A stretch of 64,000 nucleotides of DNA from Planctomycetota bacterium (GTDB taxonomy: Bacteria > Planctomycetota > Planctomycetia > Planctomycetales > Planctomycetaceae): NCBI GenBank assembly GCA_052034165.1, contig JBPOIW010000061.1:19336-83335 (forward strand). The letters are read 5' to 3'. Positions 14,985 through 26,402 of the stretch are shown one piece after another. The notes beneath the pieces are model-generated. The model was not told the DNA's origin. It worked only from the letters and a program-made list of their open reading frames with translations, and ran no database searches. The position numbers and the translations under genes were made by a program. Positions within the stretch are counted from its first letter, which is position 1. Each line of letters starts with the position of its first letter.

Positions 14985-15080
14985 AGGGTTTACAGTTGGC
15001 AGTCGTCAGTTGGCAGTGGAGTACACGAAAACAAGTTGAGAATCATCAATTGGAAGTTGCCGTCTACTGCCAACTCTGCC
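14985..15080. repeat. word-repeat filler (CAGTTGGCAG family)
   Basis: CAGTTGGCAGTCGTCAGTTGGCAGTGG at the left end and the inverted word ACTGCCAACTCTGCC at the right end. It fills the gap between the wzt start and the 4HB stop. Confidence 0.7.
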
Positions 15081-15425
15081 TTACTTTCTGATGGATCGAA
15101 TTAGACCTTGGACCATTGCGGCAAGCTCTTTCGTTTCTTGATACCAAGCTTTACCAACTTCTTCCGTTATGAATCCAACTTTCATTCCAACAATCGTCTG
15201 TGTCCGCACTTCGCCACATGAGCCTCGGGCGTAGTCCAAAAACTTACATTGATCAGCAGGTGTGGATCGTTCCAGGCCTTCGGCGATATTCGAAGGTATG
15301 GACAAGCCTGCTCGTGTGATTTGGTCGCGAAACCCAAAGTCGCGAAGATCCCTGGTGTTGGCGTAGATAGCCGCACTCAGTTCAACCGATCGCTTCCATA
15401 CTTCTAAATCTTCGAAACCAGCCAT
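15081..15425 (-). CDS. four-helix-bundle protein (23S rRNA intervening-sequence protein / Avd-like family)
   Basis: MAGFEDLEVWKRSVELSAAIY...IPSNIAEGLERSTPADQCKFLDYARGSCGEVRTQ is the family signature (NIAEG ... GS..E). It is inserted between wzt and wzm. Confidence 0.85.
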   Translation of the reverse strand: MAGFEDLEVWKRSVELSAAIYANTRDLRDFGFRDQITRAGLSIPSNIAEGLERSTPADQCKFLDYARGSCGEVRTQTIVGMKVGFITEEVGKAWYQETKELAAMVQGLIRSIRK

Positions 15426-15501
15426 GTAAAAAAGAGTAGCAAATAATCAGTGATAAGTAGCCAGTAATCACGACTGAAAACTGATAGCTGCCAACGGACG
15501 A
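15426..15501. repeat. AT-rich word-repeat filler
   Basis: GTAGCAAATAATCAGTGATAAGTAGCCAGTAATCAC words, then TAGCTGCCAAC, the inverse of the GTTGGCAG word on the other side of the 4HB gene. Confidence 0.6.
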
Positions 15502-16326: not shown

Positions 16327-16374
16327 GCGGGAACCTAAACGATTGGAACAAACAAAAGAAACCGTGGTCGAATG

Positions 16375-17136
16375 TCACCGATTTATGTGGGTACTTAGTA
16401 CAGAATGGCCAAGCCAACTTGAGCGAAATCGTTCACGCGACTCTCGATGCAACTCAACCGATGACGCAATCAAGCTTGGCGAGATCTCTCTCAGCCCTGG
16501 CACGAACACTTGACATTGCAGTGCTCGCTTGTGCGAAGAATCCGAAGCGGCGAATGAGATGATAGGCCGAAGTCGGTCTCCAACTTTGCTGAGGTAGTCG
16601 TCACCCCTTGCATTCAGACGCGGCAGATCAACTCCGGGCGCCGTCGCCCAAAGACCATCTTCAAAGAACACTGAGAATACAAGAATTGCCTGTTCTCCAG
16701 ATTCCATCTTCATCTTTGCGACAGCATACGTTCCACCTGTGTCCGAGTGCTGAAGCACTTCGCGGCTATCGATCGTCCATCCCAAACCCGTATAGCAATA
16801 GGTAAGCTCATGCCAATTTGTTTCACCGAGCTGATCAAACGACACGAGTGCCGTTGTTCTATCTTTCTGATACTGCCATTGATGCACCCACCAAAACTGC
16901 CCTTCTGGTAACTCTTCCACCGGTGGGGCCGGGATGAATTTGGTTCTCGTCCAGCCCGCCAGTTCCGCTGGCAATGCGTCTTCATTGAGTACCAAGTCAC
17001 CTCGGCTCGGGCCGGGCTTTTCACGTCCTGCCCCAGTCGGCCGAGCAAATGTTTGCAGCAGGCCCATGCCGATGATCACGGCGAAGAGACAGAGGGAGGT
17101 TTTGGCATTGGGCGCTAGGCGTTCGGCGGTGGGCAC
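16375..17136 (-). CDS. membrane-anchored hypothetical protein, possibly EpsI-like (exosortase-associated)
   Basis: N-terminal anchor SLCLFAVIIGMGLL and a WHELTYCYTGLGWTI block reminiscent of EpsI. It has a GTG start, and the first ~11 codons are encoded by GGCNTTGGGC word repeats. Confidence 0.5.
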   Translation of the reverse strand: MPTAERLAPNAKTSLCLFAVIIGMGLLQTFARPTGAGREKPGPSRGDLVLNEDALPAELAGWTRTKFIPAPPVEELPEGQFWWVHQWQYQKDRTTALVSFDQLGETNWHELTYCYTGLGWTIDSREVLQHSDTGGTYAVAKMKMESGEQAILVFSVFFEDGLWATAPGVDLPRLNARGDDYLSKVGDRLRPIISFAASDSSHKRALQCQVFVPGLREISPSLIASSVELHRESRERFRSSWLGHSVLSTHINR

Positions 17137-17309
17137 AGAGAACAGGCTTTAGGCGGTAGGCGTTGGGCACGAAAATGGGCGTTGGGCGCGAAACAGGCGT
17201 TGGGACTGGAGTAGTGTTCAGCTATTCGCTATTTACTATTTACTAGTCACCAGTTACCAGTGTTCAGTTGGCTTTGGGCTTTGGGCGGGGAGCAGTGTTC
17301 AGCTATTCC
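17137..17309. repeat. word-repeat array, family A
   Basis: Tandem degenerate 8-mers (GGCTTTAGGC, GGTAGGCGTTGGGC, GGCTTTGGGCTTTGGGC) plus two copies of AGTGTTCAGCTATTC(G/C)CTATTTAC(T/C)ATTTA. Confidence 0.8.
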
Positions 17310-17453
17310 CTATTTACCATTTAGCGGAATGCCAAAAACCTCCAATTGCTGGCCGAGACTCACTGCCGCCTGCAGAATGTTGTTAAGCCCAGCTTTGCCG
17401 TCCGGCTTGCTGGATACCAGCTCACCTTCTAGTCGCTTTCTGCGTTTTGCCAC
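17310..17453 (-). pseudogene. remnant (first ~45 codons) of a nucleotidyltransferase-fold gene
   Basis: From the GTG start the translation MAKRRKRLEGELVSSKPDGKAGLNNILQAAVSLGQQLEVFGIP matches the N-terminus of 20477..20836. The frame then runs into the CTATTTACCATTTA word and stops. Confidence 0.6.
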
Positions 17454-17650
17454 TTCTTCATCCAGACCTGGAACTGTCTCAACCCGGAGTCCGCTCTTGA
17501 TTCGGTCGGGATCTCAACGCCAAGCCATGTCGCCTGCAGTGTCGCGACAGTGTCGCTAAGTCCTCGAAGTTCTTCGTTGCGGATTCGCTCCAGTTCCGGG
17601 CCAGCTCGACGCCAGGCAGCCATCCATTGTTTTTCGAGGTCTGTGGGCAT
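17429..17650 (-). CDS. 73-aa hypothetical protein (paralog of 20812..21033)
   Basis: 63 of 73 residues are identical to the second copy. Its 3' end overlaps the GTG start of the downstream NTase remnant out of frame. Confidence 0.6.
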   Translation of the reverse strand: MPTDLEKQWMAAWRRAGPELERIRNEELRGLSDTVATLQATWLGVEIPTESRADSGLRQFQVWMKKWQNAESD

Positions 17651-17792
17651 GGGGACGTTTTCAGGCAGTAGGCAATTGTCAGCTATTCCCTATTCGCTAT
17701 TTACCATTTACTAGTCGCCATTTACCCGTGTTCAGGGGGCGTTGGGCGTTGGGCTTTAGGCTTTGGTTCCTGACCCTTTTTCCAAACTTGTT
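17651..17792. repeat. word-repeat array, family A
   Basis: TTGTCAGCTATTCCCTATTCGCTATTTACCATTTACTAGTCGCCATTTACCCGTGTTCAG followed by GGCGTTGGGCGTTGGGCTTTAGGCTTTGG. Confidence 0.8.
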
Positions 17793-18344
17793 CTAAAACA
17801 GGTCTTTCAGGTTCAAGACGGCGGATTGCTGAAACGCTGGTGACAGGCTGTGTTCGACCGTGCAGACAAATCGTTTTCGATAATCATCGCCGTGGGGCTC
17901 ACGGTGCACGTGGATACAAGTGGCCTGCGAGTCCACAATCCAGTATTCCCTGATCCCGGCTTCCGCGTACAATCGACGTTTCGTTTCCAAATCGTACGCC
18001 AAACTACTGTAAGAGACTTCTATCGCCAGTTGCACGTCAATCGCCTGAGGGTGCCCGTTGCGGTATCTGGCCGCTCGAATCCACATGATGTCCGGCTCAG
18101 GACGTGATTCCAACTCTGGCAAATCCAGGCCCGTCTGAGATGTAATAAGCGTTTTCGCCGGATCTGCGTTCCTTACCGACCAGTTGTTGAGGTACGTAAT
18201 CAGATCATCATGGATCGGTCCGGCGGGATTCATTTCCAGAAGTTCTCCGCGAATGAGTTCAATCTTCCGTGGAATCGTATCGAATGCACCGACTCGTACC
18301 ATTTGGTCGTACTCGGCAAGGGATAAATGAAGGGTTGTGGGCAT
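17793..18344 (-). CDS. Uma2 family endonuclease (DUF820)
   Basis: ELIRGELLEMNPAGPIHDD...PEPDIMWI...LAIEVSYSSLAYDLETKRRLYAEAGIREYWIVD is the canonical Uma2/PD-(D/E)xK layout. Confidence 0.85.
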   Translation of the reverse strand: MPTTLHLSLAEYDQMVRVGAFDTIPRKIELIRGELLEMNPAGPIHDDLITYLNNWSVRNADPAKTLITSQTGLDLPELESRPEPDIMWIRAARYRNGHPQAIDVQLAIEVSYSSLAYDLETKRRLYAEAGIREYWIVDSQATCIHVHREPHGDDYRKRFVCTVEHSLSPAFQQSAVLNLKDLF

Positions 18345-18490
18345 GGGGATGGTTGTCAGTGTTCAGTGTTCAGTAGGCTTTGGGCTTTGGGCTTTGGGCT
18401 TTGGGGTGCGAAAACGGACTTTAGGCGTTAGGCGGGGAACAGTGTTCAGCTATTCCCTATTCGCTATTTACGAGTTACCAATTACCAAGC
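18345..18490. repeat. word-repeat array, family A
   Basis: CAGTGTTCAGTGTTCAG, GGCTTTGGGC x4, GGACTTTAGGCGTTAGGCGG and CAGTGTTCAGCTATTCCCTATTCGCTATTTACGAGTTACCAATTACC. Confidence 0.8.
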
Positions 18491-18732
18491 CGCGTGACGG
18501 TTGAAAAAGTGCCTGTCGCGGCGCAGACTTCGTTCCTGTCGGTGACCCACGGTGGCGGTCATCGAGGTGTATTTCGGGTGCTTTTTGACGCTTCGCACGG
18601 TAAAGAACAAACCGGCGATTGATGTAAGTGATTCGACGTAAGTTTTCTGAGCTCTGCAATTGTCCTAAACTCAATCAGGGGATTCACATCCCCCGCTCGC
18701 CGAGGCAATGCATCGACGATCAACTTACTCAT
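18468..18732 (-). pseudogene. possible frameshifted small ORF (unknown family)
   Basis: An ATG at 18730-18732 opens a 57-codon frame (MSKLIVDALPRRAGDVNPLIEFRTIAELRKL...) that overlaps the 68-aa ORF 18468..18674 in another frame. A 13-bp palindrome GTCACCTGGTGAC lies about 40 nt upstream. Confidence 0.25.
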
Positions 18733-18860
18733 CTGGAAGTTCCCTACCGTACTCTAAAAAATCAGTCGGTGTCACCTGGTGACCGCTGTCTTCATGTGAA
18801 TTTTGCACGACTGGTGAAACAAAATGCTGTGTGCGGGTATTGAGGGTGGTAAGGGGGCAA

Positions 18861-19022
18861 GTTGGGCTTTGGGCGTTGGGCTTTGGGCATCGCCTACCGA
18901 CAACTGGTAACTCGTAACTGGGGAAGAGCCCGGAGTTTCCCACTGAACACTTGTCTTCTCCTCCATTCCCCATTCCCTGCCTACCGCCCGTCGCCTACCG
19001 CCCATCGCCTACCGCCTACCCT
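18861..19022. repeat. word-repeat array, family A (partly inverted orientation)
   Basis: GGGCTTTGGGCGTTGGGCTTTGGGC, then inverted words CGCCTACCG, AACTGGTAACTCGTAACTGG, CTGAACACT and CATTCCCCATTCCC, then CCTACCGCC x4. The right part encodes the gmd C-terminal tail. Confidence 0.8.
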
Positions 19023-19982
19023 CACATCTTCATCGACCATGAGATGGATTAATTGCTCAAACGTGACGGATCGTTTCCAGTTGAGTTGCTGAATCGCTTT
19101 GCCGGGGTTGCCCAGTAGTTCGTGCGCGTCGGCGGGGCGTTTGAAGCGGTCGTCGATTTTTACATGGTCCTGCCAGTTCAAGCCGACATGCGAAAAGGCG
19201 GTTTCCAGCAAGTCGCGAATGGTATGCGATTCACCAGTGGCCAGCACATAGTCATCTGCCCTGCTCTGCTGCAGCATCAGCCACATGGCGTGGACGTAGT
19301 CTTTGGCAAAACCCCAGTCGCGAGCTGAATCCAGATCGCCGAGACTGACGGTTTTCTGTAAACCGGCTTTTATCTTTGCGGCGGCGAGTGTGACTTTGCG
19401 AGTGACAAAGTTTTCGCCGCGCCGAGGACTTTCATGGTTGTAACATATTGCGTTGCAGAAAAAGAGACCATGCGCTTCGCGATAGATTTTTGTCATCTGT
19501 GTCGCAAATGCTTTGGCACAACCGTAAGGAGAGTTGGGATTGATCGGTGTTGTTTCGTCCTGTGGGCTCACGGTCGGCGTACCGAAGATTTCGCGGCTGC
19601 TGGCGTGCAGGAACTTTGGCGGGCTTGAGAGATCTCGCAGAATTTCCATGATCCGAAGACTTCCCATTGCCGTCAGATCACAAGTGCTTTCCGGAATATC
19701 AAAACTCAGACCCACATGGGACTGACCTGCCAGATGATAGAACTCGGTCGGTTGCACCTTATTGATGATCCGGCGAATCGTGGTCGTGTCGGACAGATCG
19801 GCGTAATGCAGGAACAGACGCTTTTCGTAGACTCCTGCGTCACCATAAAACTGGTTCAGCCGCGAACGTTCCAGCGTACTGCTGCGACGGACGATGCCGT
19901 GAACTTCGTAGCCTTTTTCCAGCAACAGCTCGGTGAGATACGATCCGTCCTGACCTGTGATGCCAGTGATGAGGGCGAGCAT
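18981..19982 (-). CDS. gmd: GDP-mannose 4,6-dehydratase (short type), paralog 1
   Basis: [35 protein letters not shown], ...SPYGCAKAFA... and [15 protein letters not shown]. The last 14 residues VRVGGRRWAVGDGR are encoded by word repeats. Confidence 0.9.
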   Translation of the reverse strand: MLALITGITGQDGSYLTELLLEKGYEVHGIVRRSSTLERSRLNQFYGDAGVYEKRLFLHYADLSDTTTIRRIINKVQPTEFYHLAGQSHVGLSFDIPESTCDLTAMGSLRIMEILRDLSSPPKFLHASSREIFGTPTVSPQDETTPINPNSPYGCAKAFATQMTKIYREAHGLFFCNAICYNHESPRRGENFVTRKVTLAAAKIKAGLQKTVSLGDLDSARDWGFAKDYVHAMWLMLQQSRADDYVLATGESHTIRDLLETAFSHVGLNWQDHVKIDDRFKRPADAHELLGNPGKAIQQLNWKRSVTFEQLIHLMVDEDVRVGGRRWAVGDGR

Positions 19983-20089
19983 GGGGATTTCAGTTGGCTT
20001 TGGGCTTTAGGCTTTAGGCTTTAGGCTTTAGGCATTGGGCATTGGGCGGTTGGGCGGTTGGCAGTGGGAACAAAAACAGGCGTTGGGTG
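19983..20089. repeat. word-repeat array, family A
   Basis: CAGTTGGCTTTGGGC, GGCTTTAGGC x4 (period 8), GGCATTGGGC x2, GGCGGTTGGGCGGTTGGCAGTGG and GGCGTTGGGTGTTAGGGG. Confidence 0.85.
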
Positions 20090-20452
20090 TTAGGGGTTTG
20101 GCTTTCTGGACCGAATCAGGGCTCCGAGACTGGCTCCGAGCGGCTCGGTGCGTCCCAACAGTCCAGCAAGCTGTTCGTCGGTTAGGTATCCGATCTCCTT
20201 TGCAATCTCAAGCTGCGTTTCCAACTCAGCAAGCGATCCCAAGGCAATTCGGAAAAAACGAATTGAATCTTTGTCGCTGGATCTTGCATCGCCTTCAGCA
20301 ATGTTCGATGGAACGCTTACTGCAGCTCGACGCACTTGATCACGAAGCCCCCAGTCTTTGTTCCAAGGATCCATCCCTGTCATCTGATATACCTGAACAG
20401 CCAATGACTTCGACTGCTGCCAGACCATCAGTTTTCGATAACCGATACCCAT
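20090..20452 (-). CDS. four-helix-bundle protein (23S rRNA IVS protein / Avd-like family)
   Basis: MGIGYRKLMVWQQSKSLAVQVY...VPSNIAEGDARSSDKDSIRFFRIALGSLAELETQ. Confidence 0.85.
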   Translation of the reverse strand: MGIGYRKLMVWQQSKSLAVQVYQMTGMDPWNKDWGLRDQVRRAAVSVPSNIAEGDARSSDKDSIRFFRIALGSLAELETQLEIAKEIGYLTDEQLAGLLGRTEPLGASLGALIRSRKPNP

Positions 20453-20560
20453 CGTCCGCTACTAATTGGCTAATTTCTATCGCCTGACGCCTAAAGCCAG
20501 CGGTGGGGATTGGGCGTTGGGCATTGGGTGGAATCGCAGGTAAAAAACAGGTGCTTGGTG
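20453..20560. repeat. word-repeat array where family A meets family B
   Basis: The inverted word CGCCTGACGCCTAAAGCC, then GGGATTGGGCGTTGGGCATTGGGTG, followed immediately by GAATCGCAGGTAAAAAACAGGTGCTTGGTGCTTG. Confidence 0.8.
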
Positions 20561-20836
20561 CTTGTCGATCCTGCTGTTGAACTGTGATAGCAAATGTTCA
20601 ATCGCTGACTCCTCACAACCGAATCCAATCAGCAAGGTGGCATCAACGTCGACCGTTTGACGTGGTTCGCCCCACCGCTGGACAGCGACACCGCCAATCA
20701 CACAATATGGAATCCTAAAAATCTCCAACTGTTGGCCAAGACTGACGGCTGCCTGCAGTATGTTGTTGAGACCAGTGTCGCGATCCGGCGTGCTGAATCC
20801 CGGTTCAGGTTCTACTCGCTTTCTACGTTTTGCCAC
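20477..20836 (-). pseudogene. nucleotidyltransferase-fold gene, 3'-truncated by word repeats
   Basis: NTase motif IPYCVIGGVAVQRWGEPRQTVDVDATLL. After ...SQFNSRID the ORF continues as KHQAPVFYLRFHPMPNAQSPPLALGVRR, which is simply a translation of the family B/A words. Confidence 0.55.
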
Positions 20837-21033
20837 TTCTTCATCCAGACCTGAAATTGCCTCAACCCAGAGTCCACTCTTGATTCAGTCGGTATTTCAA
20901 CACCAAGCCAAGTTGCCTTAAGTGTCGCCGTTTCGTCGCTGAGTCCCCGGAGCTCCTCGGCGCGGATGCGTTCAAGCTCAGGACCGGCTCGACGCCAGGC
21001 GGCCATCCATTTTTCTTCGAGTTCCGTGGGCAT
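20812..21033 (-). CDS. 73-aa hypothetical protein (paralog of 17429..17650)
   Basis: MPTELEEKWMAAWRRAGPELERIR..., ATG at 21031-21033. The longer track ORF to 21114 reads through repeats. Its 3' end overlaps the GTG start of 20477..20836. Confidence 0.6.
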   Translation of the reverse strand: MPTELEEKWMAAWRRAGPELERIRAEELRGLSDETATLKATWLGVEIPTESRVDSGLRQFQVWMKKWQNVESE

Positions 21034-21278
21034 ATGCTCGGTGCCTGGTCGAATCGCAAGGGAAATACACGTCGAATCGCAGGTGCTTAGTGCTTTGTGC
21101 TTGGTCGAAAACACAGTGAAAAAGCAGGTCAGAAACGCAGGTTGAAAACGCAGGTGCTTGGTGCTTGGCCAAAAATGCAGGTCGAGAAAACAGCTTAAAA
21201 CTCAGGTGCTTGGTTGAATCACAGGGTGAAAAACAGGCGCTTGGTTGAATCGCTGGTTCTGGGCAGATCTATGACAAG
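21034..21278. repeat. word-repeat array, family B
   Basis: GAATCGCAAGG, GAATCGCAGGTGCTTAGTGCTTTGTGCTTGGTC, GAAACGCAGGT, GAAAACGCAGGTGCTTGGTGCTTGG and CTCAGGTGCTTGGTTGAATC. Confidence 0.85.
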
Positions 21279-21923
21279 CTACTTCCGCTCTTTTTCCTGC
21301 TTTCGCTCGGCTTCAGCTTCGACCAACAGTTCAATGAACATCTGCTCATATTGAGAATGAACATTGCAAAGATGGTTGCGGATCTTTTCAATGGCAATTG
21401 GGCGCAGTGTCTTCAACACCTCAACCACATGCGCTCGATCCTTCTGCCGTCCGGAACTAATCTTCAGTTCCATCCAATACTCAATCGGGGCATAGTGAAG
21501 CCCGCTATCCAGCCCCATTTTTTTGGGACCCGGAATCACGGTAGGGGATGAGTCACGGGCCTTCCCGCCTTCCGGCACGACTTTGATTTCCACATCCTCG
21601 TGCGTCAGTGTGTGCCAGCCCAACTTTGATTCCCAGGCGACTTTCAGACCATAACGAGATGACGCTTCAATCAGAGACTGCAGGTTCCTGCGATCAATCG
21701 CAATGTCAATGTCCTGAGTGGCCGCCGGATAACCAAAATGAATGGCTCCCAAACCCCCGACAATCGCCAACGAAATGTGCTCCTTTTCAGCCAGACGCTG
21801 AAGATCCTCGAGTGCTCGTGTAAAGCGATTTTCTTCAGAGTTTATGTTCCGCACCGCATCTATACATTCAGAGCCTCGGCTAAGTGTTTCAAGAGCCGAC
21901 TTGATTGCAAAGGAAAGAGGCAT
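21279..21923 (-). CDS. nucleotidyltransferase-fold protein
   Basis: ISLAIVGGLGAIHFGYPAATQDIDIAI (G-G...D-x-D NTase motif) and C-terminal KISSGRQKDRAHVVEVL. The likely start is MPLSFAIK at 21923. Confidence 0.65.
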   Translation of the reverse strand: MPLSFAIKSALETLSRGSECIDAVRNINSEENRFTRALEDLQRLAEKEHISLAIVGGLGAIHFGYPAATQDIDIAIDRRNLQSLIEASSRYGLKVAWESKLGWHTLTHEDVEIKVVPEGGKARDSSPTVIPGPKKMGLDSGLHYAPIEYWMELKISSGRQKDRAHVVEVLKTLRPIAIEKIRNHLCNVHSQYEQMFIELLVEAEAERKQEKERK

Positions 21924-22169
21924 GTGCTTCGTGAAATCGCAGGGAAAAAGCAGGTTGAATCGCAGGTGCTTGGTGCTTGGTCCAAAAAAGCAGGTCAAAT
22001 CTCAAGTGTTTGGTGCTTGGTCGGAAACGCAGGTTGAATCACAAGTGCTTAGTGCTTGGTCAAGAAAACGGGTTAAATCGCAAGTCGATAAAACAGGTGC
22101 TTCGTGCTTGGTCAAAAAAAGCTGGCGACTGAGGACCAAGGACTAAGCACCAAGGACTAAGGACCGGGC
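21924..22169. repeat. word-repeat array, family B, ending in inverted words
   Basis: GAATCGCAGGTGCTTGGTGCTTGGTC-type words, then the inverted form GAGGACCAAGGACTAAGCACCAAGGACTAAGGACC (22128-22165). Confidence 0.85.
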
Positions 22170-22703
22170 TCAAATCCTGACAGGGAAGTCTGGACATAGA
22201 TTCGATTGAGTTGTCAAAACGTCCGGATGGTTTTTCGCATAGAATTCCATCCTGCCATCCTCACGACAATACCAGACTTCCTCCGCTCCGGCTTCAAAGT
22301 ACAGATGCTTCTTGCAGTCCATTTCAGCATCTGTATTGCTCGGCGAAATCACCTCAACACAAATCTCCGGGGCCGCTTCGAATGCGATTTGTCCTTTCAC
22401 TGAAGCAAATCGTTCTGAGGAGTACCATCCCACATCCGCAGCCCGCACACCGTCAAGTGTCGAAATGGGGCATTCCGGAAGCGCATGCCCCGCAAGGATA
22501 GATCGAAGCTGAAACGCAATTTCTCCCTGCAAACTACTGTGATGACCCGAAGGAGGAGGTGTCATTAGTAATGCGCCATAGCAGTTTGTTTCGACTCGAA
22601 ATGGCAGATCCGCCAGTGTTCGATCCGCCAGCACTTCCGCCCATCGCTGGCGATTTTGCCTCAGTGCCTCTTCTCGCGGAGGTAATTCGATAACAAGTTT
22701 CAT
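22170..22703 (-). CDS. Uma2 family endonuclease (DUF820)
   Basis: ...GALLMTPPPSGHHSSLQGEIAFQL...AADVGWYS...PEICVEVISPSNTDAEMDCKKHLYFEAGAEEVWY. Confidence 0.75.
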   Translation of the reverse strand: MKLVIELPPREEALRQNRQRWAEVLADRTLADLPFRVETNCYGALLMTPPPSGHHSSLQGEIAFQLRSILAGHALPECPISTLDGVRAADVGWYSSERFASVKGQIAFEAAPEICVEVISPSNTDAEMDCKKHLYFEAGAEEVWYCREDGRMEFYAKNHPDVLTTQSNLCPDFPVRI

Positions 22704-22941
22704 CAAACCATGCCTTGGGTGTTGGTGTGCTTCGCGGTGCTAGGTCAGAAACGCAGGTTGAATCGCAGGTCGAAAAAGCAGGTGCTTGGTGCTTGGTCGG
22801 AAACACAGTGAAAAAGCAGGTCAGAAACGCAGGTGCTTGGTTGAATCGCAAGGGAAACACAGGTCGAATCGCAGGTGCTTGGTGCGTGGTCGGAAACGCA
22901 GTGAAAAGCAGGTCAAATCGCAGGTGCTTGGGGACTAAGGA
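22704..22941. repeat. word-repeat array, family B, ending in inverted words
   Basis: GAAACGCAGGTTGAATCGCAGGTCGAAAAAGCAGGTGCTTGGTGCTTGGTC ... CAAATCGCAGGTGCTTGGGGACTAAGGACTAAGGAC. The 4HB stop codon lies inside the last word. Confidence 0.85.
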
Positions 22942-23310
22942 CTAAGGACTTCGCGATGCGAGATAGCGGATGAAGCCGCCGATCCTGGTGTGTGTTCTAG
23001 TGGCTTGTTCGTAGATGAGCTGAAACTGCTCGTCAGAGATGTAGTCCTGGTCAAGGGCCGCGTAGAGCTGACTTTTTACCTCGGCGCACGAACGCTGGGC
23101 GTATCGGAGGAACCGAATAAATTCTGCGTCACTTCCTCCGTCAAAACCTTCTGCAATATTGTGCATCGCTGAACCAGCCGCTCGTTGAATCTGATCCTTC
23201 AGGGCGAAGTCTCTGCTGAAATCCGGATTCTTCGTGGCCACATAAACCAAACGAGTCAATTCCCTTGCTAATTTCCAGCCTTCGATATCCTCGAATCGCT
23301 CGATTTTCAT
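22942..23310 (-). CDS. four-helix-bundle protein (23S rRNA IVS protein / Avd-like family)
   Basis: MKIERFEDIEGWKLARELTRLVY...AMHNIAEGFDGGSDAEFIRFLRYAQRSCAEVKSQ, ATG at 23308-23310. The track ORF to 23403 is an extension through repeats. Confidence 0.85.
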   Translation of the reverse strand: MKIERFEDIEGWKLARELTRLVYVATKNPDFSRDFALKDQIQRAAGSAMHNIAEGFDGGSDAEFIRFLRYAQRSCAEVKSQLYAALDQDYISDEQFQLIYEQATRTHTRIGGFIRYLASRSP

Positions 23311-23530
23311 AAACTCAAAGAAGCAGGTTGAAACACAGGTGCTTGGTCGGAAAACAGGTAAAAAAAGCAGGTGCTTAGTGCTTGGTGCTTGGTTGAATCG
23401 CAAGGGAACGGGTCAAAAAAAGCAGGTGCTTGGTGCTTGGTGGAAACGCAGATCGAGAAACCGGGGGCTTGGTGCTCGGTTGAATCGCCTTAAAAAACAA
23501 GGTGAAACGGAGGTTAAAAAAGCAGGGTGA
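23311..23530. repeat. word-repeat array, family B
   Basis: AAGCAGGTTGAAACACAGGTGCTTGGTCGG, AGCAGGTGCTTAGTGCTTGGTGCTTGGTTGAATCGCAAGG and AGCAGGTGCTTGGTGCTTGGTGGAAACGCAG, and so on. Confidence 0.85.
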
Positions 23531-23838
23531 ACGCAGATCTGGTCGGCGCGCACTTCGTTCTTCTGGGTGACAGGGACGAAGGCTGCACGCTGACGAACGT
23601 CTGAGCCACTATTGTTGGCAACCGCGATATGGCATTGTCAACAGTTTTCAGGTTCCATCAAATACTCCCAGAACCAGAAGAGTCAAACATTGTTCCGAAA
23701 CCTTCATGGAACCAATCGACGTTCAGGCAAACTGCGCCAGCTGGAGAGAACTTTGCAACCGCAGCCGTTCCAGTTTCAGGAATAATAACGATTGCGCAGC
23801 GTGCATCGCCGCACAGAGTGATGTGCTCCCGATCGCGG

Positions 23839-23920
23839 GCTCAGAAAAGGGGTCTGGAACCAATAGCCAAATGGCCCGAAGGGTGCTGCGCACTATTGGT
23901 TCCAGACCCGTTTTCTGAGC
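23839..23920. repeat. long palindromic hairpin (28-bp stem, 26-nt loop)
   Basis: GCTCAGAAAAGGGGTCTGGAACCAATAG (23839-23866) pairs with CTATTGGTTCCAGACCCGTTTTCTGAGC (23893-23920), with 1 mismatch in 28. Confidence 0.8.
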
Positions 23921-23926
23921 CTCTAG

Positions 23927-24335
23927 CTGGACAGCGCCATGTTCGGCTCCCTTACAAGCCCGAAGCGCTAGCGTGTGAACACTTTGCGACTCATTCCCTC
24001 GCTGGCGCTTTTTGAAGTTGCGTTATTCGACAACGGAGCAGATCAACAGGGCGAAAACGCAGGGAATTATCATAACCCGACGCGTCAGCGAGGGATTTTC
24101 CCGAACACTGCGTGAAACGCAAAAGCACGATCCCTCGCTAACGCAGCGGGTTGGGACAGTCGCAAATGCGCAACTTCAAAACGCGTCAGCGAGGAATTGA
24201 CGGAAACATTGATAAAACGCAAATGCTCTATCCCTCACTCACGTTTCGGGTTGGGATGGCGACAAATGCGCAACTTCAAAACTGGCGATTCGGGCTTGGA
24301 TTCTCAATGGTTTTCGTGAACATGGCGCTGTCCAG
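23927..24335. mobile_element. MITE family E1 copy A (TIR CTGGACAGCGCCATGT, CTAG target duplication), carrying a nested E2 insertion
   Basis: 16-bp perfect TIRs at 23927-23942 and 24320-24335, flanked by CTAG at 23923-23926 and 24336-39. The first ~85 nt and last ~55 nt match the reverse complement of copy B (49436-49564). Confidence 0.8.
24010..24281. mobile_element. MITE family E2 copy A (TIR TTTTGAAGTTGCG, 8-bp target duplication)
   Basis: TTTTGAAGTTGCG at 24010-24022 and GCGCAACTTCAAAA at 24268-24281, flanked by CTGGCGCT (24002-09) and CTGGCGAT (24282-89). The uninterrupted E1 copy has a single CTGGCGCT at this position. An internal ~100-nt unit is duplicated in tandem. Confidence 0.8.
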
Positions 24336-25310
24336 CTAGGCTTTCCGCTGCAAATCGGCATCGACCATCAATTTGATTAGCTCATCAAACTTCGTTGTGG
24401 GCTGCCAGTTGAGCTGCTGCCGAGCTTTCTCGGGATTGCCCAGCAATTCATGAGCATCTGCGGGGCGGTTAAATCGCTTGTCAACCTTCACATGGTCCTG
24501 CCAGTTCAAGCCAACATGCGAAAACGCGACTTGCAACAGTTCCCGAATCGTATGTGATTCGCCGGTGGCCAGCACATAATCATCCGCCTTGTCCTGCTGC
24601 AGCATCAGCCACATGGCGTGGACAAAATCTTTGGCATAACCCCAGTCACGGGCAGAATCCAAATCGCCGAGGCTGACGGTCTTCTGCAATCCGGCTTTAA
24701 TGCGCGCGGCGGCCAGTGTCACTTTGCGAGTCACAAAGTTTTCACCTCGCCGCGGGCTTTCATGGTTGTAACAGATCGCATTGCAGAAAAAGAGCCCGTG
24801 CGCTTCGCGATAAATCTTCGTCATCTGTGTGGCGAATGCCTTGGCACATCCGTACGGCGAATTCGGATTGATGGGGGTTGATTCATCCTGAGGGCTCACC
24901 ATCGGCGTCCCGAAGATCTCGCGACTGCTGGCATGCAGAAACTTCGGAGGACTCGGGAGATCTCGCAGGATTTCCATAATCCGGAGACTTCCCATCGCGG
25001 TCAGATCACAGGTACTTTCGGGGATCTCAAAACTAAGGCCCACGTGCGACTGACCCGCCAGATGATAAAACTCCGTGGGCTGCACTTTGTTGATAATGCG
25101 GCGGATGGTGGTCGTGTCTGAGAGATCCGCATAGTGCAGGAACAATTTCTTCTCATAGACGTTGTCGTCGCCATAGAACGCCTGCAGACGCGCTCGCTCC
25201 AGCGTACTACTGCGGCGCACGATGCCGTGAACTTCGTAGCCTTTTTCAAGCAGAAGTGCGGTCAGGTAGGAACCGTCCTGACCTGTGATTCCAGTGATGA
25301 GAGCGATCAT
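24336..25310 (-). CDS. gmd: GDP-mannose 4,6-dehydratase (short type), paralog 2
   Basis: [15 protein letters not shown] start (ATG 25308-25310; the track ORF to 25487 reads through repeats). About 35 substitutions versus paralog 1 over ~325 aligned residues by manual alignment. Confidence 0.9.
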   Translation of the reverse strand: MIALITGITGQDGSYLTALLLEKGYEVHGIVRRSSTLERARLQAFYGDDNVYEKKLFLHYADLSDTTTIRRIINKVQPTEFYHLAGQSHVGLSFEIPESTCDLTAMGSLRIMEILRDLPSPPKFLHASSREIFGTPMVSPQDESTPINPNSPYGCAKAFATQMTKIYREAHGLFFCNAICYNHESPRRGENFVTRKVTLAAARIKAGLQKTVSLGDLDSARDWGYAKDFVHAMWLMLQQDKADDYVLATGESHTIRELLQVAFSHVGLNWQDHVKVDKRFNRPADAHELLGNPEKARQQLNWQPTTKFDELIKLMVDADLQRKA

Positions 25311-25490
25311 AGGGAAAAGGCCTGTGCTTGGTTGAATCGCCGGTGCCTGGTGCTGGGTCAAATCGCAAGCAAATCTCAGGTGGTTCGTTGAACCAAGCAC
25401 CTGTTTTCGACCAAGAACCTGCGACTCAACCAAGCACCTGCGATTAGACGGGCGCTTAAACCAAGCACCTGCTGTTTCAACCTGCAACTA
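25311..25490. repeat. word-repeat array, family B (both orientations)
   Basis: CCTGTGCTTGGTTGAATCGC..., then inverted words AACCAAGCACCTG x3 and GACCAAGAACCTGCGACTC. It contains the left copy of a 68-bp direct repeat. Confidence 0.85.
25370..25437. repeat. 68-bp direct repeat, left copy
   Basis: CAAATCTCAGGTGGTTCGTTGAACCAAGCACCTGTTTTCGACCAAGAACCTGCGACTCAACCAAGCAC is identical to 26191-26258 except for one C/T difference. Confidence 0.85.
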
Positions 25491-26078
25491 CTATCCTTCT
25501 GGATCATCGATAAGTTGCTGCAGGCGCTCGGCGTGAAGGCGCGGAAGTTGGGACAACCAACTGGAATCGATTAAGCCGACACTGAGCATATCCAGCAAGT
25601 GCACCTGATCTTTGCGGCGAAATGAATTGAGCTTCATCTTTAGCAGTGCCAGCAAGTTGACCACATCATACTCATCCGCCGACTCCACTTCCGTGACGTC
25701 GGCTGAAGGCACCGCATATTCAGGCCGGACCTTCTCTGCGGCATATAGCAAATGCACGCCATCACGTGGGCTTCCGTCGGGGCCGTCGATGAAGCAATCG
25801 ACTCCCATCAGTTCATGATGGATAAACCCGACTGATTCGAGGGCCTGCTTCACTCGATCGAAATCAGTTCGCCGCACAAGTATGTCGACGTCCTGCGTGT
25901 TGCGCACAGCCGCCCGATCCACTCGAGCAACCCAAGCGGCCACCGCATTGCCTCCGGCCACCGCATAGGGTATCTGCGCGGCCTTCAGCGCCGCCGTCGC
26001 GCGCAAGGCTCGTTCACGGACGGCTTCCACAGCGTCAATCATCCTTTGCCACGAAAAAGGTTTTAGTTCAATGGCCAT
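25491..26078 (-). CDS. nucleotidyltransferase-fold protein
   Basis: IPYAVAGGNAVAAWVARVDRAAVRNTQDVDILV (NTase G-G...D-x-D) and C-terminal LKMKLNSFRRKDQVHLLDML, the same architecture as 21279..21923. Confidence 0.7.
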   Translation of the reverse strand: MAIELKPFSWQRMIDAVEAVRERALRATAALKAAQIPYAVAGGNAVAAWVARVDRAAVRNTQDVDILVRRTDFDRVKQALESVGFIHHELMGVDCFIDGPDGSPRDGVHLLYAAEKVRPEYAVPSADVTEVESADEYDVVNLLALLKMKLNSFRRKDQVHLLDMLSVGLIDSSWLSQLPRLHAERLQQLIDDPEG

Positions 26079-26294
26079 CGTTTGAATCGCAGGTTGAATC
26101 GCAGGTGCTTGGTGCTTGGTGCTTGGTCAAAACGCAGGGGGGAAACGCGGGTCGAAAAAGCAGTCAAAGTACAAGTGCTTGGTGCTTCGTCAAATCTCAG
26201 GTGGTTCGTTGAACCAAGCACCTGTTTTCGACCAAGAACCTGCGACTCAATCAAGCACCAAGGACCAAGCACTAATAACCAAACACAAATCGGC
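26079..26294. repeat. word-repeat array, family B (both orientations)
   Basis: GAATCGCAGGTTGAATCGCAGGTGCTTGGTGCTTGGTGCTTGGTC..., then the right copy of the 68-bp direct repeat, then CACCAAGGACCAAGCAC. Confidence 0.85.
26191..26258. repeat. 68-bp direct repeat, right copy
   Basis: See 25370-25437. The two copies bracket the NTase gene 25491..26078. Confidence 0.85.
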
Positions 26295-26402
26295 CTACAT
26301 TTTGGCAAGGACGGTTTCCTGTTTCTCCAGGTCCAGGTCGTGATCAACCATCAGTTTGGCCAGTCCGGCGAGGTCAGTTCTTGCGGTCCCGCCAGGTTCA
26401 TG
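26295..26402 (-). pseudogene. orphan 3' fragment of a long-type gmd
   Basis: The minus-strand translation [35 protein letters not shown] aligns with the C-terminus of gmd3 ([34 protein letters not shown]). No upstream homology. Confidence 0.7.

What the first reader, a model, noticed from the sequence alone, without database searches (positions are those of the whole stretch)
17137..26295. Unidirectional array of ~10 small accessory-gene cassettes, each bounded by degenerate 8-nt-periodic word repeats, embedded in a glycan locus
Between the EpsI-like gene and gmd3, every gene boundary is filled by 75-250 bp of tandem degenerate words (12 blocks, listed as repeat features). Family A runs from 17137 to about 20520: GGCTTTGGGC, GGCGTTGGGC, GGCTTTAGGC, GGCGGTAGGC, CAGTGTTCAG and the AT-rich CTATTCCCTATTCGCTATTTACCATTTACTAGTC. 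Family B runs from about 20520 to 26295: CAGGTGCTTGGTGCTTGGT, GAATCGCAGGT, GAAACGCAGGT and the inverse form GGACTAAGCACCAAGGAC. The genes between blocks are all on the minus strand and are small multicopy orphan types: two four-helix-bundle genes here plus a third at 15081 (the family of DGR Avd and of the ORFs inside 23S rRNA intervening sequences), two Uma2 endonucleases, three NTase-fold genes plus a remnant, and two 73-aa paralogs. They are interleaved with two closely related gmd copies. Words often occur in opposite orientation on the two sides of a cassette. Examples are GGCTTTAGGC x4 at 20003-20036 versus GCCTAAAGCC at 20489-20498 around the 4HB gene, and AAGCACCAAGG at 22145 versus CAGGTGCTTGGTGCTT at 22779 around Uma2. 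A long minus-strand transcript could therefore pinch each cassette out on an imperfect stem, as rRNA intervening sequences do. The AT-rich words always lie upstream of the next gene and could be portable promoters. No integrase, transposase, RT or cas gene is present, and there are no clean TIR/TSD ends. I cannot map this to integron attC, REP/BIME, CRISPR or MITE architecture.
Basis: partly seen in the sequence, partly recalled or inferred. Interest (0 to 1): 0.85.

Follow-up and report, generated by a model that had tools for sequence, protein, structure and literature searches.

The report
Heptamer repeat arrays flanking small-gene cassettes
In a planctomycete surface-sugar operon, the gaps around about ten small accessory genes are filled with 7-base tandem repeats, a known but unexplained kind of bacterial repeat, and related strains carry these genes in different orders with the joins in or at the edge of the repeats.

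Summary
The repeats are real, far above chance and confined to 14.8-26.3 kb of the window. Their period is 7, not 8: 21 exact heptamer runs lie inside the region, 3 lie outside, and 0.6 are expected by chance.

They are heptanucleotide tandem-repeat arrays of the STRR/LSSR type. These are long known in cyanobacteria, Beggiatoaceae and Bacteroidetes. Here the host is a planctomycete, and the arrays are built into 19-69-nt composite modules.

In the window and two relatives' loci the arrays sit almost only in spacers next to 4HB (23S-IVS protein), Uma2 and NTase genes (18/22 spacers against 3/49). Two further loci look the same by eye.

Relatives show cassette gain, loss and reordering with breakpoints at ORF edges or inside arrays, and a clean +7-nt polymorphism. 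Long direct repeats of the modules bracket cassettes (69 nt at 99% identity).

On the sense strand the arrays are C-rich, G-poor and weakly folded. Four spacers form local hairpins. Most 4HB genes and one NTase gene, but no Uma2 gene, are bracketed by complementary arrays.

Best reading: slippage-prone arrays serve as homology patches for recombination-driven cassette turnover and as non-polar spacers. There is no integron, CRISPR or MITE architecture. The portable-promoter idea is unsupported. I rate it a new variant of a known kind.

The parts
14985..15080 (-). Spacer between 4HB_15081 and wzt. Sense strand carries GCCAACT-type heptamers next to the wzt start and forms a local hairpin.
   Evidence: TRF array 14993-15017. 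RNA fold z -3.1. The relative L152 has (GCCAACT)x3 at the same wzm-to-wzt spacer but no 4HB gene.
15081..15425 (-). 4HB gene (23S rRNA intervening-sequence protein family) inserted between wzm and wzt.
   Evidence: PF05635, E 5e-31. Absent at this position in L152 and L164, present in L178. Flank duplex z -3.6.
15426..15501 (-). Spacer between wzm and 4HB_15081, 7-nt periodic.
   Evidence: Lag-7 identity 0.51, lag-14 identity 0.50.
17071..17325 (-). Family A block upstream of the EpsI-like gene. Sense words are GCCCAAC, GCCTAAA, CTGAACA and AATAGNG. It holds two copies of a 65-nt composite module. The GTG start of the listed ORF lies inside the array.
   Evidence: families D8, D10.
17326..17650 (-). 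p73a (17429-17650) plus about 100 nt of truncated NTase. This is the remnant of an AbiE-like two-gene cassette.
   Evidence: 80% identical over 300-325 nt to 20709-21033 (D4). The full-length 189-aa NTase partner is present in L153, with weak AbiEii matches.
17651..17792 (-). Family A block between Uma2a and p73a.
   Evidence: Lag-7 identity 0.51. TRF arrays. Fold z +0.4.
17793..18344 (-). Uma2a endonuclease-family gene.
   Evidence: PF05685, E 3e-33. Found at 96-98% nt identity in three different array and gene contexts. The identity starts about 5 nt before the ATG and ends 4 nt after the stop.
18345..18488 (-). Family A block upstream of Uma2a: (GGCTTTG)x4, (CAGTGTT)x2 and the AT-rich module.
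   Evidence: TRF 100% match arrays. Lag-7 identity 0.61.
18489..18980 (-). Degenerate segment holding short doubtful ORFs, a conserved 24-nt box (18521-18544) and inverted arrays (18855-19020).
   Evidence: No Pfam hits. Homologous to the '88-aa' region of L163. Box located.
18981..19982 (-). gmd1 (GDP-mannose 4,6-dehydratase paralog). Its last ~13 codons are array sequence.
   Evidence: PF16363, E 1e-122. Array 18979-19020. The gene is absent between the 4HB and Uma2a orthologs in L153-L162.
19983..20089 (-). Family A block between 4HB_20090 and gmd1. It is almost structure-free on the sense strand.
   Evidence: Lag-7 identity 0.63. MFE -3.4 kcal/mol for 107 nt, z +2.25.
20090..20452 (-). 4HB_20090 gene, bracketed by complementary arrays (G-type words 5', C-type words 3').
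   Evidence: PF05635, E 3e-33. Flank duplex z -3.1. The same inverted arrangement appears in L152, L153 and L154, and with different words in L164.
20453..20559 (-). Block where family A changes to family B.
20560..21033 (-). p73b (20812-21033) plus an NTase reading in another frame (20477-20836). This is a disrupted AbiE-like pair.
   Evidence: The G-G...DVD motif is visible in the translation.
21034..21278 (-). Family B block. Sense words are AAGCACC, CCTGCGATTCRAC and CTGCTTTTT.
   Evidence: D1, D3, D11. Fold z +1.5.
21279..21923 (-). NT_21279, a putative NTase-fold gene.
   Evidence: No Pfam or PDB hit. Weak pairwise similarity to NT_25491 and to the L153 NTase. Its 84% ortholog in L127 has a different upstream neighbour and word family.
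21924..22169 (-). Family B block with a GTCCTTA/G arm just after the Uma2b stop, forming a local hairpin.
   Evidence: TRF 39-nt x3.6 and 7-nt arrays. Fold z -2.75 for 22040-22169.
22170..22706 (-). Uma2b endonuclease-family gene.
   Evidence: PF05685, E 1e-14. About 98% identical in L145, while the adjacent 4HB is 88% identical.
22707..22941 (-). Family B block. Together with 21090-21142 it forms a 53-nt, 96% direct repeat that brackets NT_21279 plus Uma2b.
   Evidence: D11. TRF. The block is riddled with whole-word indels relative to L145.
22942..23310 (-). 4HB_22942 gene.
   Evidence: PF05635, E 1e-29. Orthologs sit in L145 (same neighbour) and in L153/L154 (different neighbours).
23311..23500 (-). 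Family B block upstream of 4HB_22942.
24336..25310 (-). gmd2 (GDP-mannose dehydratase paralog, about 80% nt identity to gmd1).
   Evidence: PF16363. 80.7% over 965 nt.
25311..25490 (-). Family B block between NT_25491 and gmd2. A G-type arm and a C-type arm make a strong local hairpin. It contains one copy of a 69-nt direct repeat.
   Evidence: MFE -58 kcal/mol, z -5.0. D13 copy at 25370-25438.
25491..26078 (-). NT_25491 nucleotidyltransferase gene, bracketed by a 69-nt, 99% direct repeat and by complementary arrays.
   Evidence: PF14907, E 6e-8. D13. Flank duplex -89 kcal/mol, z -9.2. The order gmd2-block-NT is kept in L137 at 79% identity.
26079..26294 (-). Family B block upstream of NT_25491, with a local hairpin and the second copy of the 69-nt repeat.
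   Evidence: Fold z -3.6 for 26160-26294. D13 copy at 26191-26259.
26295..26398 (-). Remnant of a gmd3-type 3' end, the scar of a past duplication or deletion that ends at the block.
   Evidence: 76 of 104 nt identical to 26498-26601. The translation matches the gmd3 C-terminus.

Best explanation
The blocks are heptanucleotide tandem-repeat arrays of the STRR/LSSR type, in a planctomycete. Several word types are strung together into 19-69-nt composite modules. They fill the spacers of a long minus-strand wzm/wzt-type glycan operon wherever small accessory genes are interleaved. Those genes are 4HB/23S-IVS-protein genes, Uma2 nuclease genes, AbiE-like p73+NTase pairs, other NTase genes and gmd paralogs.

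Shown: the arrays change by gain and loss of whole words. They are specifically associated with these genes in this lineage. Cassette content and order differ between relatives, with junctions at ORF edges or inside arrays. Copies of the same module bracket cassettes as direct repeats.

Inferred:
1. The arrays grow by replication slippage.
2. Because the same modules recur in every spacer, they act as portable homology patches. RecA-type recombination between them, either unequal crossover or loop-out and Campbell-type re-entry, deletes, duplicates, reorders and imports cassettes without any integrase.
3. The arrays persist because on the transcribed strand they are C-rich, G-poor and nearly structure-free just before each start codon. 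Some have a hairpin just after the preceding stop. An inserted gene therefore does not block expression of the downstream operon genes.
For: Period and chance.

Slippage: there is an exact +7-nt (GGCGGTT) polymorphism among contigs that are otherwise nearly identical over this 200-nt stretch, taken from different samples. Whole-word indels separate the window from L145. Relatives carry 9-15-copy arrays where the window has 2-5.

Association: 18/22 spacers next to cassette genes carry arrays against 3/49 other spacers, p = 2.5e-10. The same picture holds with other word families in L164, L178 and L180.

Cassette turnover:
- L152 has 4HB followed directly by EpsI-like, wzm and wzt, with no gmd1, Uma2a or p73a and no 4HB between wzm and wzt.
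- L153-L162 have the 4HB directly followed by Uma2a.
- L153 has the order 4HB_20090', Uma2a', 4HB_22942', p73', intact NTase.
- L164 and L178 have the same operon backbone with cassettes at other positions.
- The Uma2a ORF sits in three different contexts, and identity is limited to the ORF plus or minus about 5 nt.
- Among codons that keep the same amino acid, 5-7% differ for Uma2 against 34-43% for the neighbours on the same contig.

Homology patches: a 69-nt, 99% direct repeat brackets NT_25491. A 53-nt, 96% repeat brackets NT_21279 plus Uma2b. 65-nt, 82-88% modules bracket p73a and Uma2a. A gmd 3' remnant ends at a block.

Transcript properties:
- GC skew on the sense strand is -0.21 to -0.28 in array spacers against +0.06 to +0.10 in other spacers, in four loci.
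- The last 60 nt before the start codon fold at -5 to -7.5 kcal/mol against -11 to -12.5 kcal/mol.
- No terminator or promoter consensus falls in the blocks.

Precedent: MacGregor 2015 (PMC4679880) describes mixed heptamer assemblages, 7-nt indels, contigs that end in repeats, and a suggested role in gene rearrangement. For STRR, roles in transcript stability and translational coupling have been proposed (PMC2670836).
Against: - Recombination at the arrays is inferred from junction positions, not observed. Fast array turnover could erase older junction sequence and imitate 'breakpoints in arrays'.
- Spacers within one locus are not independent, so the Fisher p-value overstates the evidence.
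- Outside this lineage, heptamer arrays flank ordinary housekeeping genes. Examples are Pirellulales L022 and a cross-phylum sample where 4HB was only 3 of 126 neighbouring ORFs. There the arrays show no orientation bias: 26 C-type against 24 G-type upstream of genes.
- In relative L147 the family-B words lie in the G-rich orientation upstream of a gene.
- 4HB genes of other lineages sit in operons with 3-18-nt spacers and no arrays, so cassettes do not need arrays.
- The leader/non-polarity role rests on composition and folding only.
Confidence: 0.55

Rival explanations
1. Neutral by-product. Insertions of selfish small genes create unconstrained spacer DNA in which slippage-prone heptamers simply accumulate. 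The arrays have no role in recombination or expression, and cassettes moved by unrelated means.
For: Heptamers are the commonest long SSR class in prokaryotes and are attributed to polymerase slippage (Mrazek 2007, as summarised in PMC4679880). Across phyla the arrays sit beside all kinds of genes and more often 3' of genes than 5' (87 against 50), with 23 in convergent against 7 in divergent spacers. Copy number varies freely.
Against: The same strand-specific C-rich, G-poor composition and weak folding recur in four loci with unrelated word sets. High-identity 53-69-nt modules bracket cassettes. Word families are kept across about 20% nucleotide divergence. Other long spacers in the same operon have no arrays.
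Confidence: 0.22
2. RNA-level model, from the first reader and narrowed here. Complementary arrays on the two sides of a gene, or within one spacer, form stems in the long operon transcript. RNase III cuts these stems, as in 23S rRNA intervening sequences and the hmw1A 5'-UTR. This releases or stabilises individual cistrons, above all the 4HB genes.
For: 5'x3' flank duplexes are significant for 7 of 10 4HB genes. They include 4HB_15081 (z -3.6), 4HB_20090 (z -3.1) and L164-4HBa (-88 kcal/mol, z -6.9, built from entirely different words), and also NT_25491 (z -9.2). Local hairpins occur in four window spacers (z -2.75 to -5.0). There is a precedent: a heptanucleotide SSR arm pairs with a G-rich arm and is cut by RNase III in H. 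influenzae (PMC12721329). STRR hairpins lie between hupS and hupL (PMC2670836).
Against: 0 of 6 Uma2 genes, and p73, gmd1, gmd2 and 4HB_22942 in the window, show no significant flank pairing. Most spacers are less structured than shuffles. Each G-type arm also has an adjacent local partner, so long-range pairing is not required. No base-level covariation can be scored because the arrays pair in many registers. 4HB genes elsewhere lack any flanking stems.
Confidence: 0.13
3. A dedicated mobile-cassette system. A recombinase or nuclease encoded elsewhere, or the Uma2 PD-(D/E)XK nuclease itself acting like a homing endonuclease, recognises array words as attachment or cleavage sites and moves single ORFs.
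For: The Uma2a and Uma2b ORFs are 5-8 times less diverged at synonymous sites than their neighbours on the same contigs. Uma2a occurs in three contexts with identity ending within about 5 nt of the ORF. Cassettes are one-directional and lack consensus promoter matches.
Against: No integrase, transposase or RT was found in the 64-kb window. No conserved core site is shared by all junctions. The Uma2a alleles show mosaicism inside the ORF, which is typical of homologous recombination. The 'neighbour' 4HB genes may be paralogous alleles rather than orthologs, since L152 carries a 4HB with only 10% synonymous-codon difference. Several cassette positions are conserved over long distances, such as 4HB between wzm and wzt, and p72+NTase before wzm, in L178.
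Confidence: 0.08

Closest known systems
STRR (short tandemly repeated repetitive sequences) of filamentous cyanobacteria, and long simple sequence repeats with 7-nt units (Mrazek 2007)
   Same: Head-to-tail 7-nt units in intergenic DNA, several unit types per genome, hairpin-forming arrangements inside operons, and copy number changing in 7-nt steps. Function is unknown, with transcript stability and translational coupling proposed (PMC2670836; PMC4679880).
   Different: The host is a planctomycete. The words differ from the classical STRR units as I recall them (CCCCAGT, TTGGTCA, CAACAGT). The arrays are built into 19-69-nt higher-order modules. In this lineage they are tied to spacers around 4HB/Uma2/NTase genes rather than spread over the genome.
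Mixed heptamer assemblages (TAACTGA and others) in Beggiatoaceae, Microcystis, Gramella, Aequorivita and Elizabethkingia (MacGregor 2015, PMC4679880)
   Same: Several different heptamers share one spacer, often directly upstream of start codons that lack a Shine-Dalgarno site. Neighbouring strains lack the repeats or carry another gene there. Contigs break in the repeats. A role in gene rearrangement and translation was suggested.
   Different: That study found no pattern in the functions of neighbouring genes. Here the association with three small-gene families is strong and the cassette permutations are documented directly.
Haemophilus influenzae hmw1A heptanucleotide SSR, (ATCTTTC)n, in the 5'-UTR (PMC12721329)
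   Same: A transcribed 7-nt array pairs with a complementary arm into a long hairpin upstream of a surface-structure gene. RNase III processing and repeat-number variation are coupled. It resembles the G-arm/C-arm hairpins at 25311-25490, 26160-26294 and 22040-22169.
   Different: That case is a single locus and a single array acting as a phase-variation switch. Here there are about 14 consecutive spacers, most of them unstructured, and nothing is known about expression.
Integron gene-cassette arrays
   Same: One-directional cassettes with no consensus promoter match, each a small single ORF, with content varying between relatives.
   Different: There is no intI and there are no attC sites (most spacers do not fold). 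Junctions are tandem arrays, so homologous rather than site-specific recombination is the likely agent.
Neisseria NIME/dRS3 repeat arrays and 'minimal mobile elements' (from my own knowledge, not checked here)
   Same: Arrays of short intergenic repeats mark hot spots where alternative genes are exchanged by homologous recombination after DNA uptake.
   Different: The units there are 20-nt dRS3 repeats flanking 50-150-nt RS elements, not heptamer tandems, and the exchange uses conserved flanking genes.
23S rRNA intervening sequences that carry a PF05635 ORF
   Same: The same protein family. In two of the three window 4HB genes and five of seven in relatives, the ORF is bracketed by complementary sequence that could form a stem.
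   Different: These genes lie in an mRNA operon and not in an rRNA helix. The stems are made of degenerate heptamer arrays. The feature is not universal for 4HB genes.

Membership tests
Heptanucleotide tandem-repeat arrays (LSSR/STRR-type) | Head-to-tail copies of a 7-nt unit, more than chance gives | tested here: met
   TRF period-7 arrays. Lag-7 identity 0.40-0.63. 21 exact runs against 0.6 expected.
Heptanucleotide tandem-repeat arrays (LSSR/STRR-type) | Location between genes rather than within them | tested here: met
   All blocks lie between ORFs with Pfam support. The small exceptions are the gmd1 C-terminal tail and the nominal GTG start of the EpsI-like ORF.
Heptanucleotide tandem-repeat arrays (LSSR/STRR-type) | Copy number differs between close relatives by whole units | tested here: met
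   There is a +7-nt GGCGGTT polymorphism in 3 of 10 near-identical contigs. Whole-word indels separate the window from L145.
STRR in the strict sense | Cyanobacterial host and the classical unit sequences | tested here: not met
   A DUF1598 protein and Planctomycetaceae/Rhodopirellula best hits place the window in Planctomycetes. No TRF consensus equals the classical units, which I give from memory.
Integron cassette array | Adjacent intI tyrosine recombinase | tested here: not met
   No recombinase domain in the window ORFs scanned against Pfam, which were most ORFs of 150 aa or more plus the small ORFs of the region. Only 64 kb was examined.
Integron cassette array | attC: an imperfect palindrome of 60-140 nt at each cassette 3' end | tested here: not met
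   16 of 20 folded spacer segments have z above -1.5. Only four spacers form hairpins (five segments with z of -2.75 or lower), and these are built from tandem words.
CRISPR array | Identical 23-50-nt repeats regularly spaced by unique spacers of similar length | tested here: not met
   The units are 7-26 nt, degenerate and directly abutting. 0.2-1.0-kb genes lie between the blocks.
REP/BIME | A palindromic unit of about 35 nt in alternating orientation, with a RAYT transposase in the genome | tested here: not met
   No recurring palindromic unit. No Y1 transposase in the window. The rest of the genome could not be examined.
MITE | Terminal inverted repeats and a target-site duplication around a short non-coding element | tested here: not met
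   The blocks have no TIRs. A separate MITE-like element with 22-nt perfect TIRs does lie at 23923-24339.
23S rRNA intervening sequence | A PF05635 ORF enclosed by a stem that RNase III cuts | tested here: inconclusive
   The ORF family is met. Flank complementarity has z of -2.3 or lower for 7 of 10 4HB genes, but not for 4HB_22942, L152, L164b or L178. Cleavage cannot be tested here.
23S rRNA intervening sequence | Inserted in a 23S rRNA helix | tested here: not met
   No rRNA or any other Rfam family in the window. The genes lie in a glycan operon.
SSR contingency (phase-variation) locus | Repeat-number change switches expression of the adjacent gene | not testable with these tools
   Repeat-number variation is shown. 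No expression data are available.

The most novel reading that the evidence does not exclude
In this planctomycete lineage, heptamer-array modules form an integrase-free cassette platform inside surface-glycan operons. Single ORFs (4HB, Uma2, NTase toxins, sugar-nucleotide enzymes) loop out and re-enter through recombination between array modules. The arrays double as Shine-Dalgarno-independent, structure-free leaders that make each insertion non-polar. The 4HB cassettes are mRNA-borne counterparts of rRNA intervening sequences, with array-built stems that are processed by RNase III.
Probability: 0.15. Interest if true: 0.8.

Novelty: new variant of a known kind. Interest (0 to 1): 0.55.

Why it matters
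- Heptanucleotide intergenic repeats have been known since about 1990 (STRR) and are the commonest long SSR class in prokaryotes, yet their function is still open.
- This locus and its relatives are a natural experiment. The same operon backbone carries different cassette sets and different word families, and the arrays have the same strand-specific properties throughout. Array-mediated recombination, non-polar leaders and RNase III stems therefore become testable with existing metagenome reads and one cultivable planctomycete.
- The arrays may also explain why many contigs from glycan loci of these organisms end inside arrays, that is, why assemblies break there.
- The data point to an integrase-independent route for diversifying a likely phage-receptor locus.
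- They link free-standing 4HB genes to the stem-bounded layout of rRNA intervening sequences.

Tried and rejected
1. Cross-phylum link between the family-A word and cassette genes. The genome-contig scan gave more than 120 loci in many phyla, and none is homologous to the window. Their neighbours are mostly housekeeping genes, with 4HB in 3 of 126 adjacent against 0 of 126 distant ORFs. I rejected this as a general rule.
2. Universal strand rule for the arrays. Orientation relative to adjacent genes is unbiased across phyla. The rule holds only in this lineage.
3. Portable promoters or terminators. The consensus scans place no promoter-like or terminator-like match in any block, and both counts for the region are below the shuffle means.
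4. Known RNA families: no Rfam match in the window.
5. Known defence systems. PADLOC gave only candidate family PDC-S03 for Uma2 and weak AbiEii and DpdH hits (E 0.005-0.009) for NTase genes. NCBIfam names only the 4HB.
6. Exact-protein look-ups for longer contigs of the same strain returned only contigs of 2 kb or less.
7. The 4HB-in-stem idea as a family-wide rule. P0054 and P0055 homologs sit in operons with 3-18-nt spacers.
8. A structured RNA around the conserved 24-nt box. I found no covarying structure.
9. I considered the 'three-frame stop' property of many words (CTGAACA, GCCTAAA, CTAGCCA, GTCCTTAG). I left it as an idea only, because other abundant words (AAGCACC, GCCCAAC) carry no stop.

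Full report
**1. Observation**

The region is a run of minus-strand genes whose boundaries are filled with tandem degenerate words.
- TRF lists about 40 arrays between 14820 and 26290 and almost none in the rest of the 64-kb window.
- The unit length is 7, not 8. Lag-7 self-identity is 0.40-0.63 in most spacers.
- Exact runs of two or more heptamer copies number 21 inside 14800-26300 and 3 in the other 52.5 kb. The mean is 0.6 (maximum 4) in 200 Markov resamples. Only one exact period-8 run exists.
- The words are nearly confined to the region and strand-biased. GGTGCTT occurs 28 times on the + strand, 25 of them inside. AATCGCAGGT occurs 8 of 8 times inside.
- Family B also has 12-, 19- and 26-nt composites. 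Both families form 30-69-nt modules that recur in every spacer.
- Independent contigs from three samples are 100% identical to 16613-20457, so this is not a misassembly.

**2. Genes and host**

- three 4HB genes of the 23S-IVS-protein family (15081, 20090, 22942);
- two Uma2 genes (17793, 22170);
- gmd1, gmd2, gmd3 and fcl;
- an NTP_transf_5 gene (25491).

The two 73-aa ORFs are the first genes of AbiE-like pairs. The second copy runs into an NTase in another frame, and the first is cut off by arrays. A relative keeps the intact 189-aa NTase, which has weak AbiEii matches. NT_21279 is only weakly NTase-like.

The whole interval 1238-38070 is one minus-strand glycan cluster of methyltransferases, glycosyltransferases, wzt, wzm, gmd/fcl, Wzy_C and a ParA-like protein. 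No recombinase was found. DUF1598 and the best Uma2 hits place the organism in Planctomycetes. There is no Rfam match.

**3. What kind of repeat this is**

Heptanucleotide intergenic tandem repeats are a described class.
- They include STRR of cyanobacteria, the 7-nt peak among long SSRs, and mixed heptamer assemblages in Beggiatoaceae, Microcystis and Bacteroidetes.
- For those, the literature reports 7-nt indels, contigs breaking in repeats, and a suggested role in translation and gene rearrangement (PMC4679880; PMC2670836).
- A scan of 185,579 species' genomes for (GGCKTTR)x3 hit its 120-locus limit, with hits in Acidobacteriota, Bacteroidota, Verrucomicrobiota, Planctomycetota, Chamaesiphon and others.
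- In those loci period 7 dominates all other periods, 234 arrays against 64 or fewer.
- The neighbours there are mainly housekeeping genes, and orientation relative to genes is unbiased.
- In a Pirellulales genome, 100-130-nt arrays abut the start codons of ordinary genes.

The blocks therefore belong to a known, widespread and functionally unexplained class. No paper in the searched library combines Planctomycetes with heptanucleotide repeats.

**4. What is special here: association with the small genes**

I classified spacers as adjacent or not adjacent to 4HB/Uma2/NTase/p73 genes in the window and in two relatives' loci (L163, L164).
- 18 of 22 adjacent spacers carry a period-7/14/21 array, against 3 of 49 others (Fisher p = 2.5e-10). 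Spacers within a locus are not independent.
- Two further loci (L178, L180) show the same by eye, with CTAGCCT, CACTAGT x13 and CACTAGC x8 next to 4HB and Uma2.
- L164 uses unrelated words (CCGCAAC, GCTCCCT) in the same layout.

**5. Cassette turnover**

A metagenome scan for a family-B word and homolog look-ups recovered relatives.
- L152 (4HB 92% aa identity) reads 4HB, EpsI-like, wzm, wzt. It has no gmd1, Uma2a or p73a, and no 4HB between wzm and wzt, although the (GCCAACT)x3 array is there.
- Ten contigs (L153-L162) join the 4HB directly to Uma2a.
- L153 has the order 4HB_20090', Uma2a', 4HB_22942', p73', NTase.
- L145 and L137 keep the window's order at about 80% identity.
- L127 has another neighbour and word family upstream of NT_21279.
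- L164 and L178 share the operon backbone but place cassettes elsewhere. Some positions are old, such as 4HB between wzm and wzt, and p72+NTase before wzm, in L178.

The Uma2a ORF is near-identical in three array and gene contexts. The identity begins about 5 nt before the ATG and ends 4 nt after the stop, and there is mosaicism inside the ORF.

Among codons that keep the same amino acid, 5-7% differ for the Uma2 genes against 34-43% for 4HB and p73 on the same contigs. The 4HB copies may be different alleles, because L152's copy differs at only 10% of such codons.

Direct repeats of the modules bracket cassettes:
- 69 nt at 99% around NT_25491;
- 53 nt at 96% around NT_21279 plus Uma2b;
- 65 nt at 82-88% around p73a and Uma2a.

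A gmd 3' remnant ends at a block. The arrays themselves are unstable: there is a clean +7-nt polymorphism among near-identical contigs, whole-word indels against L145, and 9-15-copy arrays in relatives.

**6. Transcript-level properties**
- On the sense strand, array spacers have C at 0.31-0.36 and G at 0.19-0.21 in four loci (GC skew -0.21 to -0.28). Other spacers of the same operons have skew +0.06 to +0.10.
- The 60 nt before start codons fold at -5 to -7.5 kcal/mol against -11 to -12.5 kcal/mol.
- Most window spacers are at or below shuffle expectation for structure. The spacer 19983-20089 folds at -3.4 kcal/mol with z +2.25.
- Four spacers form local hairpins from a G-type arm right after a stop codon and a C-type arm: 14985-15080, 22040-22169, 25311-25490 (z -5.0) and 26160-26294.
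- 5'x3' flank complementarity is significant for 7 of 10 4HB genes, including one built from different words in L164 (z -6.9), and for NT_25491 (z -9.2). It is not significant for any of 6 Uma2 genes, nor for p73 or gmd.
- No sigma-70-type promoter match or intrinsic-terminator match lies in a block.
- The hmw1A heptamer/RNase III hairpin is a precedent for the local hairpins (PMC12721329).

**7. Interpretation**

The best-supported account has three parts.
- The arrays are slippage-prone heptamer SSRs. This is shown.
- Their shared modules serve as homology patches for recombination that deletes, duplicates, reorders and imports cassettes. This is inferred from junctions, bracketing repeats and mosaic divergence.
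- They are tolerated or selected because they give structure-poor, C-rich intercistronic leaders and occasional 3' hairpins, so insertions are not polar. This is inferred from composition and folding.

Rivals are:
- pure neutral accumulation of slippage arrays;
- an RNA-processing role centred on stem-bracketed 4HB genes;
- a dedicated recombinase or Uma2-driven homing.

The cassette-array idea, the enrichment and the breakpoint predictions are supported.

**8. Verdict**

This is a real and striking locus. It is a new variant of a known repeat class and not a categorically new system. Its value lies in the clear link between heptamer arrays and cassette turnover in a surface-glycan operon, and in the 4HB/IVS-like layout. 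Both are testable.

Noticed in passing
window 23923-24339: A MITE-like 417-bp element with 22-nt perfect terminal inverted repeats (CTAGCTGGACAGCGCCATGTTC) and sub-terminal inverted repeats. Inside are two ~100-nt tandem units, each with its own hairpin. The right end abuts the gmd2 stop codon. A similar internal unit occurs in L178 (spacer 15657-16268).
   Followed up: partly
window 23838-23921: A 29-nt arm, 97% complementary palindrome (GGCTCAGAAAAGGGGTCTGGAACCAATAG ... CTATTGGTTCCAGACCC...) lies just beside the MITE-like element.
   Followed up: no
window 18521-18544 (-) and 23546-23569 (-); also L153-L164, L178, L179: A conserved 24-28-nt box, GTCACCGACAGGAACGAAGTCCGCGCCG, always lies on the sense strand of glycan loci in several planctomycete relatives (0 expected by chance in the window). 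The flanks are not conserved and there is no covarying structure. It may be a protein-binding or regulatory site.
   Followed up: partly
window 30235-30339 and 30826-30991: A 35-nt x3 tandem array and an 81-nt x2 array lie in the spacer between the glycosyltransferase and the ParA-like gene. The two are reverse complements of each other (local score 46 against 17 for the direct comparison). They are unrelated to the heptamer words.
   Followed up: partly
window 18981-19020: The last ~13 codons of gmd1 are encoded by the (GCCTACC/GCCCATC) array, so an array has been recruited as a C-terminal tail.
   Followed up: no
window 26295-26398: A truncated gmd3-type 3' end (76 of 104 nt identical to 26498-26601; the translation matches the gmd3 C-terminus) sits directly upstream of a repeat block.
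   Followed up: yes
L153, L145 against window 17793-18344 and 22170-22706: Both Uma2 genes have 5-8 times fewer synonymous-codon differences than the 4HB and p73 genes next to them on the same contigs. This points to recent exchange of the Uma2 ORFs alone.
   Followed up: partly
L175/L176 (4001-4372), L164, L178: 4HB (PF05635) genes sit inside wzm/wzt-type glycan operons in other, more distant lineages too, there with 3-18-nt spacers and no arrays. This is a recurrent, unexplained placement of the gene family.
   Followed up: partly
L153 3417-3548, L154 2080-2167, L147 1-37, L155 1-100: Contigs of the relatives begin or end inside long arrays, for example (GTCCTTA)n, (TAGTGCT)n and (GTCGTCA)5. 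The arrays are therefore likely to break short-read assemblies of these loci.
   Followed up: no
L022 4956-5001, 5584-5709, 7496-7627: A Pirellulales genome has (CATTGGT)x6, about 100 nt of (GGCGTTG/GGCGTTA) and (GGGGTTA)x19. These directly abut the start codons of three ordinary (non-cassette) genes. One array unit contains ATG and TGA.
   Followed up: no
L147 against L138: Two contigs of one metagenome share the right-hand junction (block B followed by GTTGGACATTCTTGTCCGAC...). L147 carries a P-loop ATPase gene (Walker A motif GPNGAGKT; I read it as zeta-toxin-like, not checked) plus a small partner gene between two copies of block B, while L138 has a single block after a glycosyltransferase gene. 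This may be a filled-site/empty-site pair.
   Followed up: partly
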